NCBI GenBank assembly: GCA_964016885.1
Contig: OZ024744.1
Location: forward strand, 61,566,001-61,630,000
Length of the DNA: 64,000 nucleotides
Reading direction: 5' to 3'
Source of the DNA: Eledone cirrhosa
Taxonomy: Eukaryota
Positions within the stretch are counted from its first letter, which is position 1. Every line of letters starts with the position of its first letter. Below the pieces are notes generated by a model, which saw only the letters and a program-made list of their open reading frames with translations, was not told the DNA's origin and did no database searches. This document shows positions 50,497 to 55,139 of the stretch, in pieces. The translations under genes were made by a program, and so were the position numbers.

Positions 50497-50812
<316 letters not shown>

Positions 50813-51011
50813 AGAAGTTATATTTAATTTGTTGGGATACAACAAGCAAATATTTTTATAACTGATATAAAGCACTCAACAAATTTTTGGAGTAAAAATA
50901 CAATATATTAACAAATGGAAACTATATTTATAAAACCATGTCGGTTGGAAGCTCCCCGGTCGCATTCTTTAAGGGTATGTCAATATTTGTTTATAAAACT
51001 GATCTATATTA

Positions 51012-51076
51012 TATTTTATCTGATGAAAGCGCACCATAATTTGCTTTGGTGTCCTTGAAATATGTATAATGAAATA
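51012..51076 (+). ncRNA. Type I hammerhead ribozyme motif
   Basis: TATTTTAT-CTGATGA-AAGCGCACCA...TGGTGTCCTT-GAAA-TATGTA-TA-ATGAAATA. Confidence 0.7.
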
Positions 51077-51114
51077 AATATGGTTTTATAAATATAGTTT
51101 CCATTTCTTAATAT

Positions 51115-51170
<56 letters not shown>

Positions 51171-51208
51171 GATAAATCTACCAAGAGTTTACGGTAGTGT
51201 CCAATCCG

Positions 51209-51356
51209 ATTATTTCTGAAGACGGCGTATATATGTGTTGGTATGTATATTTAATCTTGATAGTTTGTATAATTTTGTATAATTTTGTACATAGATCTGT
51301 TGAATATGCATGCCAACTCTAACACATATATATCCTAGAAACGATCGTTAAATAAT
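51209..51356 (+). ncRNA. Type I hammerhead motif with ~115-nt helix II
   Basis: ATTATTT-CTGAAGA-[TATATATGTGTT...AACACATATATA]-GAAA-CGATCG-TT-AAATAAT; helix III is palindromic. Confidence 0.65.
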
Positions 51357-51512
51357 GAACTTTTTTTGTTTAATATAAGGAATTGTTTATTCATTATTTG
51401 TTTAATATTTTATATATATATATATACATATCCGATAAATAAAGTGATAAATAAAGTAAGCATGGATTGAATTAGATATATTGAAATGATTTAAACAAAT
51501 CTGCTGTCATTT

Positions 51513-51561
<49 letters not shown>

Positions 51562-52119
51562 AATATGTTGGATCTTTGTTAAAGTTTAGATTTAGGTAAA
51601 TAATCAACAGTATAATATTTCATTCTTTATGTGCCAGCTAAATCCTTTAAATGTTACCCTCATAAAATTCAGAACCTTAGAAATGATAACACACTTATCG
51701 AATTTATAAAACTAATATATAAATAACCACTAAATAATCCTGAAATCTGGAGTCTTCACCCTAATATTATAAATTAAATATTTTCAAATTTAACCGTTTA
51801 ACTTTCGGAAAAAATCTCCTTCTGCATATATCACCCCACCCCCTTTATCTTTCCCTCTTTATAAATCCTTTTCCAGTGGCTATCACTGGCTGTTATGATT
51901 CATGAGATGTTTTCCTAGATATATCGTAGAATCATACATTTTAAAATCTCTAGAACAGTTACAGTAAGCAATGTTTTTCTTACTCACACATTCTCTAATG
52001 AATTTATTACGTTTTCGCATTTTCTCATAATTAGAGTATATATGTTAAATTTTCTCTTAGGTTAATCACTACCTTGATTAAATCTTAACCATTTAACATC
52101 TCAGGGTATGTCATGTATC

Positions 52120-52182
52120 ATTATATTTTGTCTGATGAGGACGTACTGTTGTACATCCGAAATATGTATAATAAAATGTAAT
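52120..52182 (+). ncRNA. Type I hammerhead ribozyme motif (best preserved)
   Basis: ATTATATTTTGT-CTGATGA-GGACGTAC-TGTT-GTACATCC-GAAA-TATGTA-TA-ATAAAATGTAAT; 12-bp helix I including G.U pairs; predicted cleavage after 52170. Confidence 0.8.
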
Positions 52183-52215
52183 TGATCAAAAGAAAATCTA
52201 TTTTATTAATATTTA

Positions 52216-52346
52216 TGTCAGTGTTGAACAAACGAGCAACGATGGTTGCTGGACACTACGGCTTAATACGGGATGTTTGTTTACAAACACACCGAGCATT
52301 ATAATAAATGTTCGGTGAATCCATACGTACATATATATGTGTGTGC

Positions 52347-52411
<65 letters not shown>

Positions 52412-52875
52412 CTACTGTACGTTTGTATACATATATGTATGTACGTGTACATACTTATATTTAAGTAACAGCCGTACTAAGAGTGGAAAATGAAATTTCG
52501 TTTCATTTTTTTCGTTTATCGTTTTCGGTGCAGCCGGCCGATTAACCCACTCGATATGCAAATTGGGCTACTCAGCCGTTAATATGCATAAGGTAAGTAT
52601 ATACGTTCAACAATCAGGCAGGAAGGTATACGTTGCTGACGATAGCTAATAAGCTTGAAACTAGTACAGCGTTCCTTTGTCAGTGTTGAACGATGGTTGC
52701 TGGACACTACGGCTTAACACGGGATGTTTGTTTACAAACACACCGAGCATTATAATAAATGTTCGGTGAATCCATACGTACATATTTATGTGTGTATGTA
52801 TGTATATATATATATATATATACATACTACTGTACGTCTGTATACATATATGTATGTGTGTGTAAATACTTATAT
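52216..52875 (+). repeat. Two direct copies of a ~200-250-bp unit
   Basis: 52216-52460 and 52678-52875 share TGTCAGTGTTGAAC...CACCGAGCATTATAATAAATGTTCGGTG...CATACTACTGTACG. Confidence 0.9.
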
Positions 52876-53402
52876 TTTAATATTATATATATATATATAT
52901 ATATAACGAAGGTGGTGTGGTAAGGAACCAGATGGACCATAACGCACCAGAGTACTCAATGCTTAGGGTAGTAGAGTGGGTAATGGAAAATGTTTGACCC
53001 CGGCGGCAGAGCTCAAGCCGTTTCGACGGCTATTTCTGGACTCTGAGTCCAGCCGTCAAAACGGCTTGAGCTCTGCCGTCGGGGTCAAACATTTTCCTAT
53101 ATATATAGATAGATAGATCTAGATAGATAGATCTAGATATATATGTATATTTAATATTAAAACTCTACTACCGTAGGTAGTAGAGTTTTAATATTAAGGC
53201 TAAAAAGTGAGTTTTGTTACTCTGGAGTTTTGCCTGTTTATAAATATAAATTTTGAGTATGTATTGGTTGTTTACCGACACCTCAATATGCAGGTTGGAG
53301 CACTCAACGAAGTGCGCAGTTTGGTTTGTTCACTCCGGAGTAATGTAAAATAATAAGTGTAAGTCAAACATGTTAAAGTTGGCTTCGTTTATTCCAGTTC
53401 GT

Positions 53403-53453
53403 TGCTATACATATTTCAGTGACAGCCATTATTGGCTGTGACCTCATCAGGCA
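53403..53453 (-). ncRNA. Type I hammerhead ribozyme motif
   Basis: Minus strand: TGC-CTGATGA-GGTCACAGCCA-ATAA-TGGCTGTCACT-GAAA-TATGTA-TA-GCA; helix I is short. Confidence 0.7.
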
Positions 53454-54186
53454 GTAAGAAAATAGGCAGAAAAAACAGGAAAACATGATGTTGTAATGGG
53501 TTCTACCCTGTTAATTCATCGATATGTCCAGCTCCCCTGATTTCTTTCTTTGATAGGGTATATGTCACCAAACCCAGGACCATCACTGAACTAAATGAAA
53601 ATATCAGGGAGAAGATCAGAGCCATCCCTAAGTCAGTTTGTAAAGATTTTATGCTAAACTTCACCATGCACTTCTGTTACCATAACAGAGGTTCGACAAG
53701 CTTTTGATTCCAGAGTTGGGCCTAATCAATGCAGATCAAGCCTTGAGCAAAACGCACGTTACACCTCAATAAATATAATGAAGATTTAACTCCTCGTCCT
53801 TTTCATTATTATTATATATATATATTGTTATACTTTGGGAGGGTCATGTTGCCAATAAGAAACACACGCACCAGTTGCTTTCACTTCAATTTAATTTAAT
53901 ATATATTTATAAATTTATAAATTTACAAATTTATAAATTTCTGGTTGGTATAACAATATCGGTTTCAACACACGATTTCAGATAAAGAATCTTGCTAAAC
54001 AAATTCAGAAACGAAATATATATATATACTTTGGGAGGGTCATGCTGCCAATAAAAAACACATGTACCTGTTGGATTTCACTTCAATTTATTATTTAATT
54101 ATCTAGTCAGTTTAATAACCGGATGGTTGTTTAGTTGTTGATTATCATCAAAGTTCTTTCATCACACATCCTGTGACCTCTTCAGA

Positions 54187-54606
54187 TATATATAGACAAT
54201 ATTCAAGAACTTCAGACTCTTCAGATGGCTTCTTTGAAAGTATAAATAAATATTCACCTGTTAATGGATGGAAGAATCGTCCATTGCTGTCGTCACATGA
54301 TGTAGATTTTCATGCATGTGTAGATCAAGCAGGCAAGTGAATATTTGTACACAGGACAAAGACAAGTATAATTACCACTAAACATAGCAGATATATATAA
54401 AATCTATCAACTCAATAATGATGGAGTAGCAAATATCAAACAGAAGGTTATTTGTCACTGATGTACTGAAACGCATGCATGAACATCTACAACATGTGAG
54501 AAGGACAATGGAAGGTTCTTCCATCCACTAACAGCTGAATGTTTATTTATACTTTCAAGGAAGCCATCTGACGAGTCTGAAGTTTTTTTAATATTGTCTA
54601 TATATA
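54187..54606. repeat. Diverged ~135-bp inverted repeat flanked by (TA)n
   Basis: 54187-54320 is the reverse complement of 54472-54606 with scattered mismatches. Confidence 0.9.
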
Positions 54607-55139
54607 TATATTGTTATCAGATGAAACTGTAGTAATGGCAAGATTAACAGTAGACCAGCCTTATTTTAGACTGCTCTGCTAAGAATCTCCCATAGCTAAC
54701 TTTGTAAAAGTTTCTCTATATCAGCATTGTCATTGTTTAATGTCCATTTTTCCATGCTAGCATGGGTTAGATGGGTTGTCCTGTTTGAGGCAAGTTGAGA
54801 CAGATGACCGTGTCGTGCTCACACAGAACTGTTTCTGGCTTGGTTTCTACACCTGAATGCCCTTCCTAACACCAACCACATTTACAGTATGTGCTGGGTA
54901 CCTTTTGTTGCAGCACCTACACAACCACTTTACAGCGTAGGCTGGGTGCTTTTTGCCATATTGCCATCGGGACCACTTTACAGTGTGAGCTGGGCGCTTT
55001 TGGTCGTATCACCATCATGACCACTTTTCAATGTGGGCTGGGGGCTTCATTCGACATATGCTACAGCCGATCCTCATGAGAGATGTATGGGAAGGTGGGG
55101 GGGGGGGCGTGCATACTATATATATATATCTATATATAT

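What the first reader, a model, noticed from the sequence alone, without database searches (positions are those of the whole stretch)
50898..54606. Cluster of small ORF-less hammerhead-ribozyme modules with inverted ends
Seen: four hammerhead cores in 2.5 kb (51012, 51209, 52120 on +; 53403 on -). Three share GAAA-TATGTA-TA but have different, internally complementary helix I and II sequences, so structure is kept while sequence varies. The 51012 and 52120 copies share AGGGTATGTCA upstream. The modules are ~150-400 bp and most abut (TA)n. Inverted segments lie at 50898-50939/51079-51122, 52985-53097, 53151-53197 and 54187-54606. Known: PLEs carry minimal type I hammerheads with palindromic helix III that cleave as dimers, and non-autonomous ribozyme retroelements (retrozymes) exist. 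Inference: these are either extreme PLE truncations or a diverse family of non-autonomous, (TA)n-targeting ribozyme mini-elements. About eight motifs in 64 kb would imply a very large genomic load.
Basis: partly seen in the sequence, partly recalled or inferred. Interest (0 to 1): 0.75.

Follow-up and report, generated by a model that had tools for sequence, protein, structure and literature searches.

The report
Penelope-like retroelement stubs with hammerheads
A 4-kb, (TA)n-rich stretch of an animal genome holds four short, gene-less end-pieces of Penelope-like jumping genes that carry minimal hammerhead ribozyme motifs; this is a known kind of repeat, present here in tens of thousands of copies, and whether these ribozymes cut is untested.

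Summary
The motifs are real but of a known kind. Three hammerhead cores (51020-51068 +, 52132-52170 +, 53450-53406 -) match a strict pattern that no shuffle gave. A fourth, decayed one lies at 54568-54634 (+).

- **Repeat families.** Each motif sits in its own high-copy family.
- **Insertion signature.** Copies show the published Penelope-like element (PLE) signature:
  - constant 3' ends on (TA)n
  - two alternative 3' ends about 90-135 nt apart, the "tail"
  - 5' truncation
  - a head-to-head inverted partner copy
  - exactly one tail per insertion (20 of 20 family-A copies)
- **Genome load.** The genome holds 27,055 exact cores of this subtype, against 3 for a reversed control.
- **Coding relatives.** About 4-kb reverse-transcriptase-encoding relatives carry the family-A-type hammerhead at both ends. 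Thousands of GIY-YIG candidates are also present.
- **Structure.** Helices I and II covary between families.

The window copies have no ORF. Families A and C look like fixed-boundary non-autonomous mini-elements. E and B are truncated tails. They are not tandem retrozymes.

No RNA data were available, so cleavage and expression are untested. This scan reached the same verdict before on other genomes. Interest is low to moderate.

The parts
50806..51122 (+). Family A mini-element. It consists of an inverted tail (50806-50897), the outer 42 nt of the inverted arm (50898-50939, the rest deleted), a short centre, and a forward arm to the short 3' end at 51122 on (TA)n.
   Evidence: Positions 50806-50939 are 100% identical to the reverse of arm+tail of copy L030. 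Positions 50940-51121 are 96% identical to its forward arm.
51012..51076 (+). Hammerhead A. Helix I is 51012-19 / 51069-76. The core CTGATGA is 51020-26. Helix II is 51027-56. GAAA is 51057-60. Helix III is the palindromic ATATGTAT at 51060-67. The predicted cut is after A51068.
   Evidence: dimer fold. Cleavage was not tested.
51167..51412 (+). Family E. The last ~205 bp (to the short 3' end) of a coding PLE is preceded by an inverted ~40-nt piece of that element's distal tail (51167-51208). It contains no hammerhead. The CTGAAGA at 51209 is chance.
   Evidence: Positions 51209-51413 are 100% identical to the tandem element in L097.
51560..52214 (+). Family B copy. It is 5'-truncated (corresponding to positions 340-993 of a 1141-bp unit). 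It is cut about 9 nt before the short 3' end by the next repeat.
52120..52182 (+). Hammerhead B. Helix I has 12 bp. The core is 52132-38. Helix II is GGACGTAC/GTACATCC. Helix III is ATATGTAT. The predicted cut is after A52170.
   Evidence: The dimer fold forms the double hammerhead at -34.4 kcal/mol, against 2 x -15.8 for monomers.
52211..52335 (+). A 5'-truncated copy of another (TA)n-ending repeat. A longer copy lies at about 52440-52790. No hammerhead.
   Evidence: D5: 52238-52404 vs 52689-52855, 89%; also seen in L003 and L009; loose ends
52895..53157 (+). Family F. This is an abundant, hammerhead-less repeat with an internal 113-nt palindrome (52985-53097). It is not part of the ribozyme modules.
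   Evidence: 3252 first-look candidates, 40 scored, 87-92% identity
53239..53535 (-). Family C copy with the long 3' end (at 53239). It is 5'-truncated by about 40 nt relative to the common family start.
53403..53453 (-). Hammerhead C. The core CTGATGA is 53450-44. Helix II has 10 bp. Helix III is ATATGTAT. The predicted cut is after 53406. Helix I has only 3 bp here; a G>A change breaks the fourth pair that other copies keep.
54187..54660 (+). Family D, an older family (72-88% identity between copies). An inverted arm (54187-54321) ends at a short end inside the helix II loop. A forward arm (54471 to at least 54660) follows. The right end was not determined.
54563..54639 (+). Decayed hammerhead D. 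It has CTGACGA, a long helix II loop (with a 16-nt deletion in this copy), GAAA, helix III ACTGTAGT, and helix I GCCAT/ATGGC. Relatives have CTGATGA and ACTGCAGT.

Best explanation
The modules are ORF-less tail-end and mini copies of Penelope-like retroelements (PLEs). They were likely inserted one after another by target-primed reverse transcription into a (TA)n microsatellite hotspot. Each carries the PLE-type minimal type-I hammerhead, which is predicted to cut only as a dimer.

SHOWN
- The cores and their helices are present.
- Each module belongs to a dispersed high-copy family.
- 3' ends are constant, lie on (TA)n, and come in a short form and a long ("tail") form.
- 5' truncation is variable.
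- Head-to-head inverted partner copies occur, with exactly one tail per insertion.
- The family A arm and tail are 83-89% identical to the termini of a ~4-kb element with a reverse-transcriptase-like ORF.
- Family E is identical to the end of a tandem element with an 824-aa ORF.

INFERRED
- A, B and C are copied in trans by the proteins of coding PLEs, because they keep the ~200-350-nt 3' region.
- The short and long ends are two reverse-transcription start sites, as shown in vitro for an Anolis PLE.
- The inverted partner arises because both strands of the target are nicked and extended.
- Each insertion recreates (TA)n flanks that attract the next, giving the local cluster.
- The hammerhead acts, if at all, on multimeric or paired transcripts and is not needed for insertion.
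For: MOTIFS
- Strict pattern: 3 matches against 0 in 100 shuffles.
- Descriptor: 4 matches against 0.025 expected.
- Genome-wide: 13,723 + 13,332 exact matches, against 2 + 1 for the reversed pattern.

STRUCTURE (104 distinct instances from the fetched loci)
- Helix I positions 1-8 are 90% paired. Helix II positions are 93% paired.
- With the partner slid, pairing falls to 37-61%.
- With partners dealt anew, pairing is 82% and 75%, and no shuffle of 500 reached the observed value.
- Several pair types occur per position, for example G-C 56 / A-T 24 / T-A 19.

PLE SIGNATURE
- B: of 17 aligned copies, 9 end at the short end and 7 at the long end, all on (TA)n. The 17th, the window copy, is cut short by another repeat. 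5' ends vary. Inverted tail pieces sit at the 5' end in L007, L020, L003 and L005.
- A: 20 of 20 copies have exactly one 88-nt tail, 10 on the left and 10 on the right. 18 of 20 have both arms.
- C: 12 of 19 copies start within 5 nt of one position. 9 have short and 10 have long 3' ends.
- Of the first 30 pattern hits on contig C1, 29 have a (TA)>=5 run downstream. It lies at +47 to +63 in 21, at +94 in 1, and at +140 to +153 in 7.
- Of 22 neighbouring hit pairs within 5 kb, 14 are head-to-head, 3 tail-to-tail and 5 in the same direction.

CODING RELATIVES
- L131, L132 and L134 are one ~4-kb family. It has hammerheads at both ends and a 459-566-aa open frame.
- The family A arm matches their ends at 83-89%.
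- The L097 ORF aligns with the RT of L099 (27% over 243 aa, E=6e-9, YxDD aligned). L099 has Pfam RVT_1 plus a C-terminal GIY-YIG.
- PF01541 gave 10,596 first-look candidates; 150 of 150 scored were over the cut-off.

LITERATURE
- PLE insertions show 5' truncation, an adjacent inverted truncated copy, a one-sided 30-40-bp tail, (TA)n bias and a hammerhead in the pLTR (PMC8557442, passages).
- Two internal RT start sites explain the tail. Both strands are cut and extended. The hammerhead is dispensable in vitro (PMC11167929, main text).
- Minimal dimeric hammerheads occur mostly as single motifs from truncated PLEs, with some pairs on opposite strands (PMC4209133, passages).
Against: - No ORF lies in any window module. 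No PLE-ORF similarity lies within 1.5 kb of 26 of 30 sampled hammerhead loci.
- Pfam finds no family in the L097, L131 and L132 frames at E<=0.01. At E<=10, L097 still shows neither RVT_1 nor GIY-YIG. Their PLE identity therefore rests on BLAST similarity to L099/L100 and on motifs seen by eye.
- I found no coding master for families B and C. The B unit has no frame over 61 aa and no tblastn match.
- Tails here are 88 to about 135 nt, not the published 30-40.
- Rfam hammerhead models do not match.
- Cleavage, transcription and trans-mobilisation are untested.
- The 20-locus samples per family are the best-scoring matches to the window copy, so end statistics may be biased.
Confidence: 0.88

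Rival explanations
1. They are metazoan non-LTR retrozymes. These are small non-coding repeats whose transcripts are cut at both ends by hammerheads, circularised, and copied back into DNA.
For: - The units are non-coding, 230-350 bp (A, C), AT-rich, and carry a type-I hammerhead.
- Retrozymes are reported to be pLTR-derived non-autonomous PLE relatives with variable monomer proportions (bioRxiv 10.64898/2026.07.22.740005, abstract and Results part 1; PMC7229834, passages).
Against: - The three window copies belong to three different families, and none is tandem.
- Only 5 of 22 close pairs in a 99-hit sample point the same way.
- A single hammerhead cannot release a unit-length RNA.
- The motifs are the minimal PLE type, without a closed helix III.
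- 3' ends lie 47-153 nt beyond the cut site, so cleavage does not define the copied unit.
Confidence: 0.06
2. They are MITE-like cut-and-paste DNA transposons with terminal inverted repeats that target TA.
For: Families A and D and the 52985-53097 repeat are palindromic and flanked by (TA)n.
Against: - Ends are asymmetric: exactly one tail in 20 of 20 copies.
- The centre varies between near-identical copies.
- Family B shows graded 5' truncation with fixed 3' ends.
- The arms match the ends of a reverse-transcriptase-like element.
- No transposase is linked to them.
Confidence: 0.03
3. The motifs are chance matches in AT-rich, microsatellite-rich sequence.
For: - The sequence is very AT-rich.
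- The 51209 "core" is indeed a chance CTGAAGA.
- Rfam gives only spurious microRNA-like hits on microsatellites.
Against: - 0 of 100 shuffles matched.
- 0.025 hits are expected per random window.
- The genome holds 27,055 matches against 3 for the reversed control.
- The helices covary.
Confidence: 0.01

Closest known systems
Insertion unit of canonical endonuclease-positive Penelope-like elements (Neptune / Penelope-Poseidon type), as described by Arkhipova and colleagues (PMC8557442; PMC11167929)
   Same: - 5' truncation.
- An adjacent inverted truncated copy.
- A tail at only one end.
- Insertion into (TA)n or AT-rich DNA.
- A hammerhead near the 3' end or pLTR.
- Coding relatives with RT and a C-terminal Cys-rich GIY-YIG-like region in the same genome.
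   Different: - The window copies have no ORF.
- Tails are 88 to about 135 nt rather than 30-40 bp.
- Families A and C have mostly fixed 5' ends, so they behave as non-autonomous mini-elements.
- The clade (Neptune-like) is judged only from a Cys motif seen by eye, not from a phylogeny.
Minimal hammerheads (min-HHR) of metazoan PLEs (Cervera and de la Pena 2014, PMC4209133)
   Same: - Type-I topology.
- A long helix II.
- No closed helix III; instead a palindromic stretch that allows a double-hammerhead dimer.
- Thousands of mostly single copies per genome.
- Pairs on opposite strands 100-700 bp apart.
- Family-wise compensatory changes.
   Different: - Helix III here is an 8-nt palindrome (AUAUGUAU, or ACUGCAGU in family D).
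- Helix I reaches 8-12 bp.
- A C-C or C-A mismatch at the fourth helix II pair is kept across families.
- Activity is untested.
Metazoan non-LTR retrozymes (PMC7229834; bioRxiv 10.64898/2026.07.22.740005)
   Same: - Small, non-coding, AT-rich units with a type-I hammerhead.
- Related to PLE termini.
- Co-occur with PLEs.
   Different: - Not in head-to-tail tandems.
- Minimal rather than canonical hammerheads.
- No evidence of circular RNA.

Membership tests
Hammerhead ribozyme (type I, minimal PLE variant) | Conserved core CUGANGA ... GAAA and a UH cleavage site, with helices I and II flanking the core | tested here: met
   Helix I has 8, 12, 3 and 5 bp, and helix II 7-10 bp, in the four window motifs.
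Hammerhead ribozyme (type I, minimal PLE variant) | Helices supported by compensatory changes | tested here: met
   on 104 distinct instances. The copies are related by descent, so this is supportive rather than a formal test.
Hammerhead ribozyme (type I, minimal PLE variant) | Match to curated Rfam hammerhead models | tested here: not met
   no hammerhead row at gathering score or at E<=10. This is expected for motifs without a closed helix III.
Hammerhead ribozyme (type I, minimal PLE variant) | Self-cleavage | not testable with these tools
   Only a predicted dimer fold is available. No RNA runs were listed.
Penelope-like element insertion | Constant 3' end with variable 5' truncation | tested here: met
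   Family B. Family C: (starts at 27-166 of the reference, 12 of 19 at 125-129).
Penelope-like element insertion | Adjacent inverted 5'-truncated copy | tested here: met
   Head-to-head pairs account for 14 of 22 close pairs.
Penelope-like element insertion | Optional tail extension at only one end | tested here: met
   Exactly one tail in 20 of 20 family A copies. 3' ends are bimodal at about +50 and about +145 in 28 of 30 loci. Tail length exceeds the published 30-40 bp.
Penelope-like element insertion | AT-rich or (TA)n target | tested here: met
   29 of 30 loci have a (TA)>=5 run within 220 nt downstream of the cut site.
Penelope-like element insertion | Single ORF with RT and GIY-YIG endonuclease | tested here: inconclusive
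   - Absent from the window modules.
- Related ~4-kb copies have RT-like frames, but Pfam is silent on them.
- L099 in the same genome has RVT_1 plus GIY-YIG.
Non-LTR retrozyme | Head-to-tail tandem repeats, each unit with a hammerhead | tested here: not met
Non-LTR retrozyme | Expressed as unit-length circular RNA | not testable with these tools
   No RNA holder was listed. The laid runs are contigs.
MITE (cut-and-paste, TA-targeting) | Two equivalent terminal inverted repeats at the ends | tested here: not met
   The ends differ by the one-sided tail in 20 of 20 copies.

The most novel reading that the evidence does not exclude
Each palindromic mini-element is built anew at integration. The two strands of the (TA)n target prime cDNA from two different start sites on the RNA, about 90 nt apart. 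One arm therefore always carries the tail and the other never does, and the two cDNAs are joined head-to-head at a variable centre.

This genome would then hold thousands of in vivo footprints of the two-strand, two-start-site mechanism that so far has been seen only in vitro for one lizard PLE.
Probability: 0.4. Interest if true: 0.5.

Novelty: new member of a known kind. Interest (0 to 1): 0.25.

Why it matters
The find adds no new kind of element. It does give a clean, very large natural data set for PLE integration.

- It holds about 27,000 intact-core minimal hammerheads.
- It shows one-tail-per-insertion regularity.
- It has long tails.
- It includes palindromic mini-elements.
- It includes apparently young coding masters.

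It also warns annotators of two things. Such loci look like MITEs or retrozymes. Rfam models miss these hammerheads.

Tried and rejected
- **Rfam.** Scans at gathering score and at E<=10 gave no hammerhead match. They gave only microsatellite-driven microRNA look-alikes below their thresholds.
- **RNA evidence.** No RNA holder was listed. The four runs laid are contigs of unknown kind from one study. They show only that the repeats are multi-copy. They show no molecule starts, no ends, and no circular junction that could be read as RNA.
- **Descriptor scan of coding loci.** A scan of 20 GIY-YIG loci and 4 long-ORF loci found no hammerhead within the fetched flanks. The link to coding elements came instead from inverted hammerhead pairs 3.5-4.5 kb apart.
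- **Pfam on ORFs.** Nothing at E<=0.01 for the L097, L131 and L132 ORFs. Nothing convincing for five database homologues; the best was a GIY-YIG fragment at E=0.012 in P0001.
- **Box-tail pairing.** A 10-bp pairing between the AGGGTATGTCA box and the family B tail was seen by eye. It is not kept in family A, so I dropped it.
- **Possible transposase fragment.** A 47-aa frame at 53564-53704 looked like a transposase C-terminus by eye. Pfam gave no match.
- **Earlier notes.** This genome had none.
Full report
**What is in the sequence**

Region 50.5-54.7 kb is a mosaic of short repeats separated by (TA)n and (TG)n runs. The strict pattern CTGANGA-N(8-38)-GAAATATGTATA occurs three times in the 64-kb window: 51020-51068 (+), 52132-52170 (+) and 53406-53450 (-). 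It occurred in none of 100 dinucleotide-preserving shuffles.

I wrote a structural descriptor with these requirements:
- the core
- a helix II closed next to the core
- GAAA
- a short palindromic helix III
- a UH site
- helix I of at least 3 bp

It finds these three plus one more at 54568-54634 (+). First-order random sequences give 0.025 hits per window (stricter version). All four lie inside the finding. BLAST of the repeat families against the whole window finds no further copies. So "about eight motifs in 64 kb" is not borne out.

Rfam's hammerhead models do not match, either at gathering score or at E<=10. This fits motifs that lack a closed helix III. No stop-to-stop frame of 90 aa or more lies between 50876 and 55014.

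CTGAAGA at 51209 is followed by no GAAA box and no helices. It marks the point where a 5'-truncated repeat copy (family E) begins.
- Positions 51209-51412 are 100% identical to dozens of genomic copies.
- They also match a block that recurs every 6.9 kb in a tandem array. There the block lies upstream of an 824-aa open frame.
- The 37 nt before it (51172-51208) are an inverted piece of sequence that, in the tandem element, lies about 95-135 nt beyond the copy's 3' end.

**Each real motif belongs to its own high-copy family**

Family A (window 50806-51122; 288 first-look candidates, 40 scored):
- A typical copy is a palindrome made of an inverted arm with a hammerhead on the minus strand, a centre of about 20 nt, and a forward arm with the hammerhead.
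- One outer end stops at ...AATATATTGTA on (TA)n. The other continues for 88 nt, the tail, before reaching (TA)n.
- All 20 fetched copies have exactly one tail, 10 on the left and 10 on the right. 18 of 20 have both arms.
- The window copy has lost about 125 nt of its inverted arm.
- The centre differs at one spot among copies whose arms are 94-98% identical, by my reading of the alignment.

Family B (window 51560-52214; 46 matches):
- Of 17 aligned copies, 9 stop at a short 3' end and 7 at a long 3' end about 105 nt further on. All 16 stop on (TA)n.
- The window copy is cut about 9 nt before the short end by another repeat.
- 5' ends vary.
- In several copies an inverted piece of the long tail is fused to the 5' end.
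- The longest copies are about 1.1 kb and share a 5' end.
- They have no frame over 61 aa and no protein-level match to PLE ORFs.

Family C (window 53535-53239, minus strand; 1927 first-look candidates):
- Units are about 230 bp (short end, 9 copies) or about 340 bp (long end, 10 copies).
- 12 of 19 copies start within 5 nt of one position.
- The window copy starts about 40 nt later, and two copies extend about 100 nt further upstream.

Family D (54187-54660; 138 candidates at 72-88% identity):
- It is older and has the same inverted-arm plan.
- Six relatives keep a hammerhead-like stretch with CTGATGA or near variants, a long helix II loop, GAAA and the palindrome ACTGCAGT or near variants.

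**Genome-wide picture**

- The exact pattern CTGATGA-N(10-36)-GAAATATGTATA occurs 13,723 + 13,332 times in the 3.0-Gb assembly. The same pattern read backwards occurs 2 + 1 times.
- Of the first 30 hits along contig C1, 29 have a (TA)>=5 run downstream of the predicted cut site. It lies at +47 to +63 in 21, at +94 in 1, and at +140 to +153 in 7. The short/long duality is therefore general.
- Only 4 of those 30 loci have any PLE-ORF similarity within 1.5 kb, and in none is it in the expected upstream position.
- Among 99 listed hits, 22 neighbouring pairs lie within 5 kb. Of these, 14 are head-to-head, 3 tail-to-tail and 5 in the same direction.

**Is the hammerhead structure under constraint?**

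I tested 104 distinct instances from the fetched loci.

| Test | Helix I (positions 1-8) | Helix II (7 positions) |
|---|---|---|
| Observed pairing | 90% | 93% |
| 3' partner slid by 1-3 positions | 39-61% | 37-47% |
| Partners dealt anew among instances (mean) | 82% | 75% |

- No shuffle of 500 reached the observed value.
- Several positions carry two or three pair types, for example helix II position 3 with G-C 56, A-T 24 and T-A 19.
- The copies are related by descent, so this is supportive rather than a formal proof.
- Helix III is an 8-nt palindrome (AUAUGUAU, with a central G-U). In the predicted dimer of the family B motif it forms an 8-bp intermolecular helix with both helices II intact. 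The dimer energy is -34.4 kcal/mol, against 2 x -15.8 for monomers.
- Cleavage itself is untested.

**Link to coding elements**

- Inverted hammerhead pairs 3.5-4.2 kb apart (L131, L132, L134) enclose open frames of 459-566 aa. The three loci are homologous over about 4 kb.
- The family A arm and tail are 83-89% identical to their two termini.
- The L097 frame aligns with the RT region of L099 (27% over 243 aa, E=6e-9, with the YxDD box aligned). It also aligns weakly and collinearly with L099's GIY-YIG region. [quoted passage not shown]
- Pfam is silent on the L097, L131 and L132 frames. That they are PLE proteins therefore rests on these alignments and on motifs I recognise by eye.
- The GIY-YIG family gave 10,596 first-look candidates in this genome. 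150 of 150 scored were above the cut-off.
- The few database homologues of the L097 frame that carry a name are uncharacterised proteins of a cephalopod and a ctenophore.

**Comparison with what is published**

- Passages of PMC8557442 describe PLE insertions as highly 5'-truncated. An inverted 5'-truncated copy often sits next to the 5' end. A 30-40-bp tail is often present at only one end. (TA)n is a preferred target in some clades. Hammerheads lie in the pLTRs of canonical PLEs.
- The main text of PMC11167929 shows that an Anolis PLE protein cuts and extends both DNA strands at AT-rich sites. It starts reverse transcription at two internal RNA sites, and the spacing between them corresponds to the tail. 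It does not need the hammerhead in vitro.
- Passages of PMC4209133 describe minimal, dimer-type hammerheads in PLE flanking repeats. These occur mostly as single motifs attributed to truncated PLEs. Some pairs lie 100-700 bp apart on opposite strands. In vitro activity is low.
- PMC7229834 (passages) and a 2026 preprint (abstract and Results part 1) define animal retrozymes as tandem units and relate them to PLE pLTRs.
- I did not see the supplements of these papers. They may hold families closer to the ones here.

**Verdict**

Every structural feature of the modules matches the PLE insertion signature. The window holds a nest of at least five PLE-type insertions (A, E, B, C, D). They are interleaved with other (TA)n-ending repeats that carry no hammerhead: 52211-52335, about 52440-52790, and 52895-53157.

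- E and the window's B copy are truncated tails.
- A and C behave as non-autonomous mini-elements with largely fixed boundaries.
- They are not tandem retrozymes, not MITEs, and not chance.

The differences from the literature are matters of degree:
- tails of 88 to about 135 nt
- an 8-nt palindromic helix III
- a conserved C-C or C-A mismatch in helix II
- the strict one-tail-per-insertion rule in family A

Earlier follow-ups in this scan reached the same verdict on other genomes. I reached mine from my own calls.

Noticed in passing
helix II of the hammerheads (e.g. window 51030/51053, 52142/52155): The fourth pair of helix II is a C-C (82) or C-A (11) mismatch in 93 of 104 distinct instances, across families A, B and C. 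Every neighbouring position is 83-100% paired.
   Followed up: partly
L097 (G000:C1:420375700-420385699) and listing: Family E has dozens of copies 100% identical over 204 nt. It also forms a tandem array with a 6.9-kb period holding an uninterrupted 824-aa RT-like frame. This looks like a very young, possibly active element.
   Followed up: partly
window 52895-53157: A very abundant repeat (3252 first-look candidates) with a 113-nt internal palindrome, ending on a TA/GATA-rich stretch. It has no hammerhead and its class is unknown.
   Followed up: partly
window 52211-52335 and 52440-52790: Two copies of another repeat, one of them 5'-truncated. Both end on (TA)n, a retroelement-like pattern without a hammerhead.
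   Followed up: no
window 53820-53877 and 54016-54073: A direct repeat (86%) that starts right after (TA)n. The same sequence appears inverted in locus L032 next to a family A copy.
   Followed up: no
window 51431-51516: An 86-nt unit caught between two (TA)n runs. It may be another extreme tail stub.
   Followed up: no
window 50538-50665 and many other microsatellites: Rfam microRNA models (mir-5014, mir-297, mir-3149 and others) give sub-threshold hits on (TA)n/(TG)n palindromes. These are artefacts of simple repeats.
   Followed up: yes
L135 (G000:C1:24799100-24804900): Two inverted copies of a longer relative of family B (about 2.2 kb each), with no frame of 200 aa or more. This may be a decayed master or a longer non-autonomous form.
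   Followed up: partly
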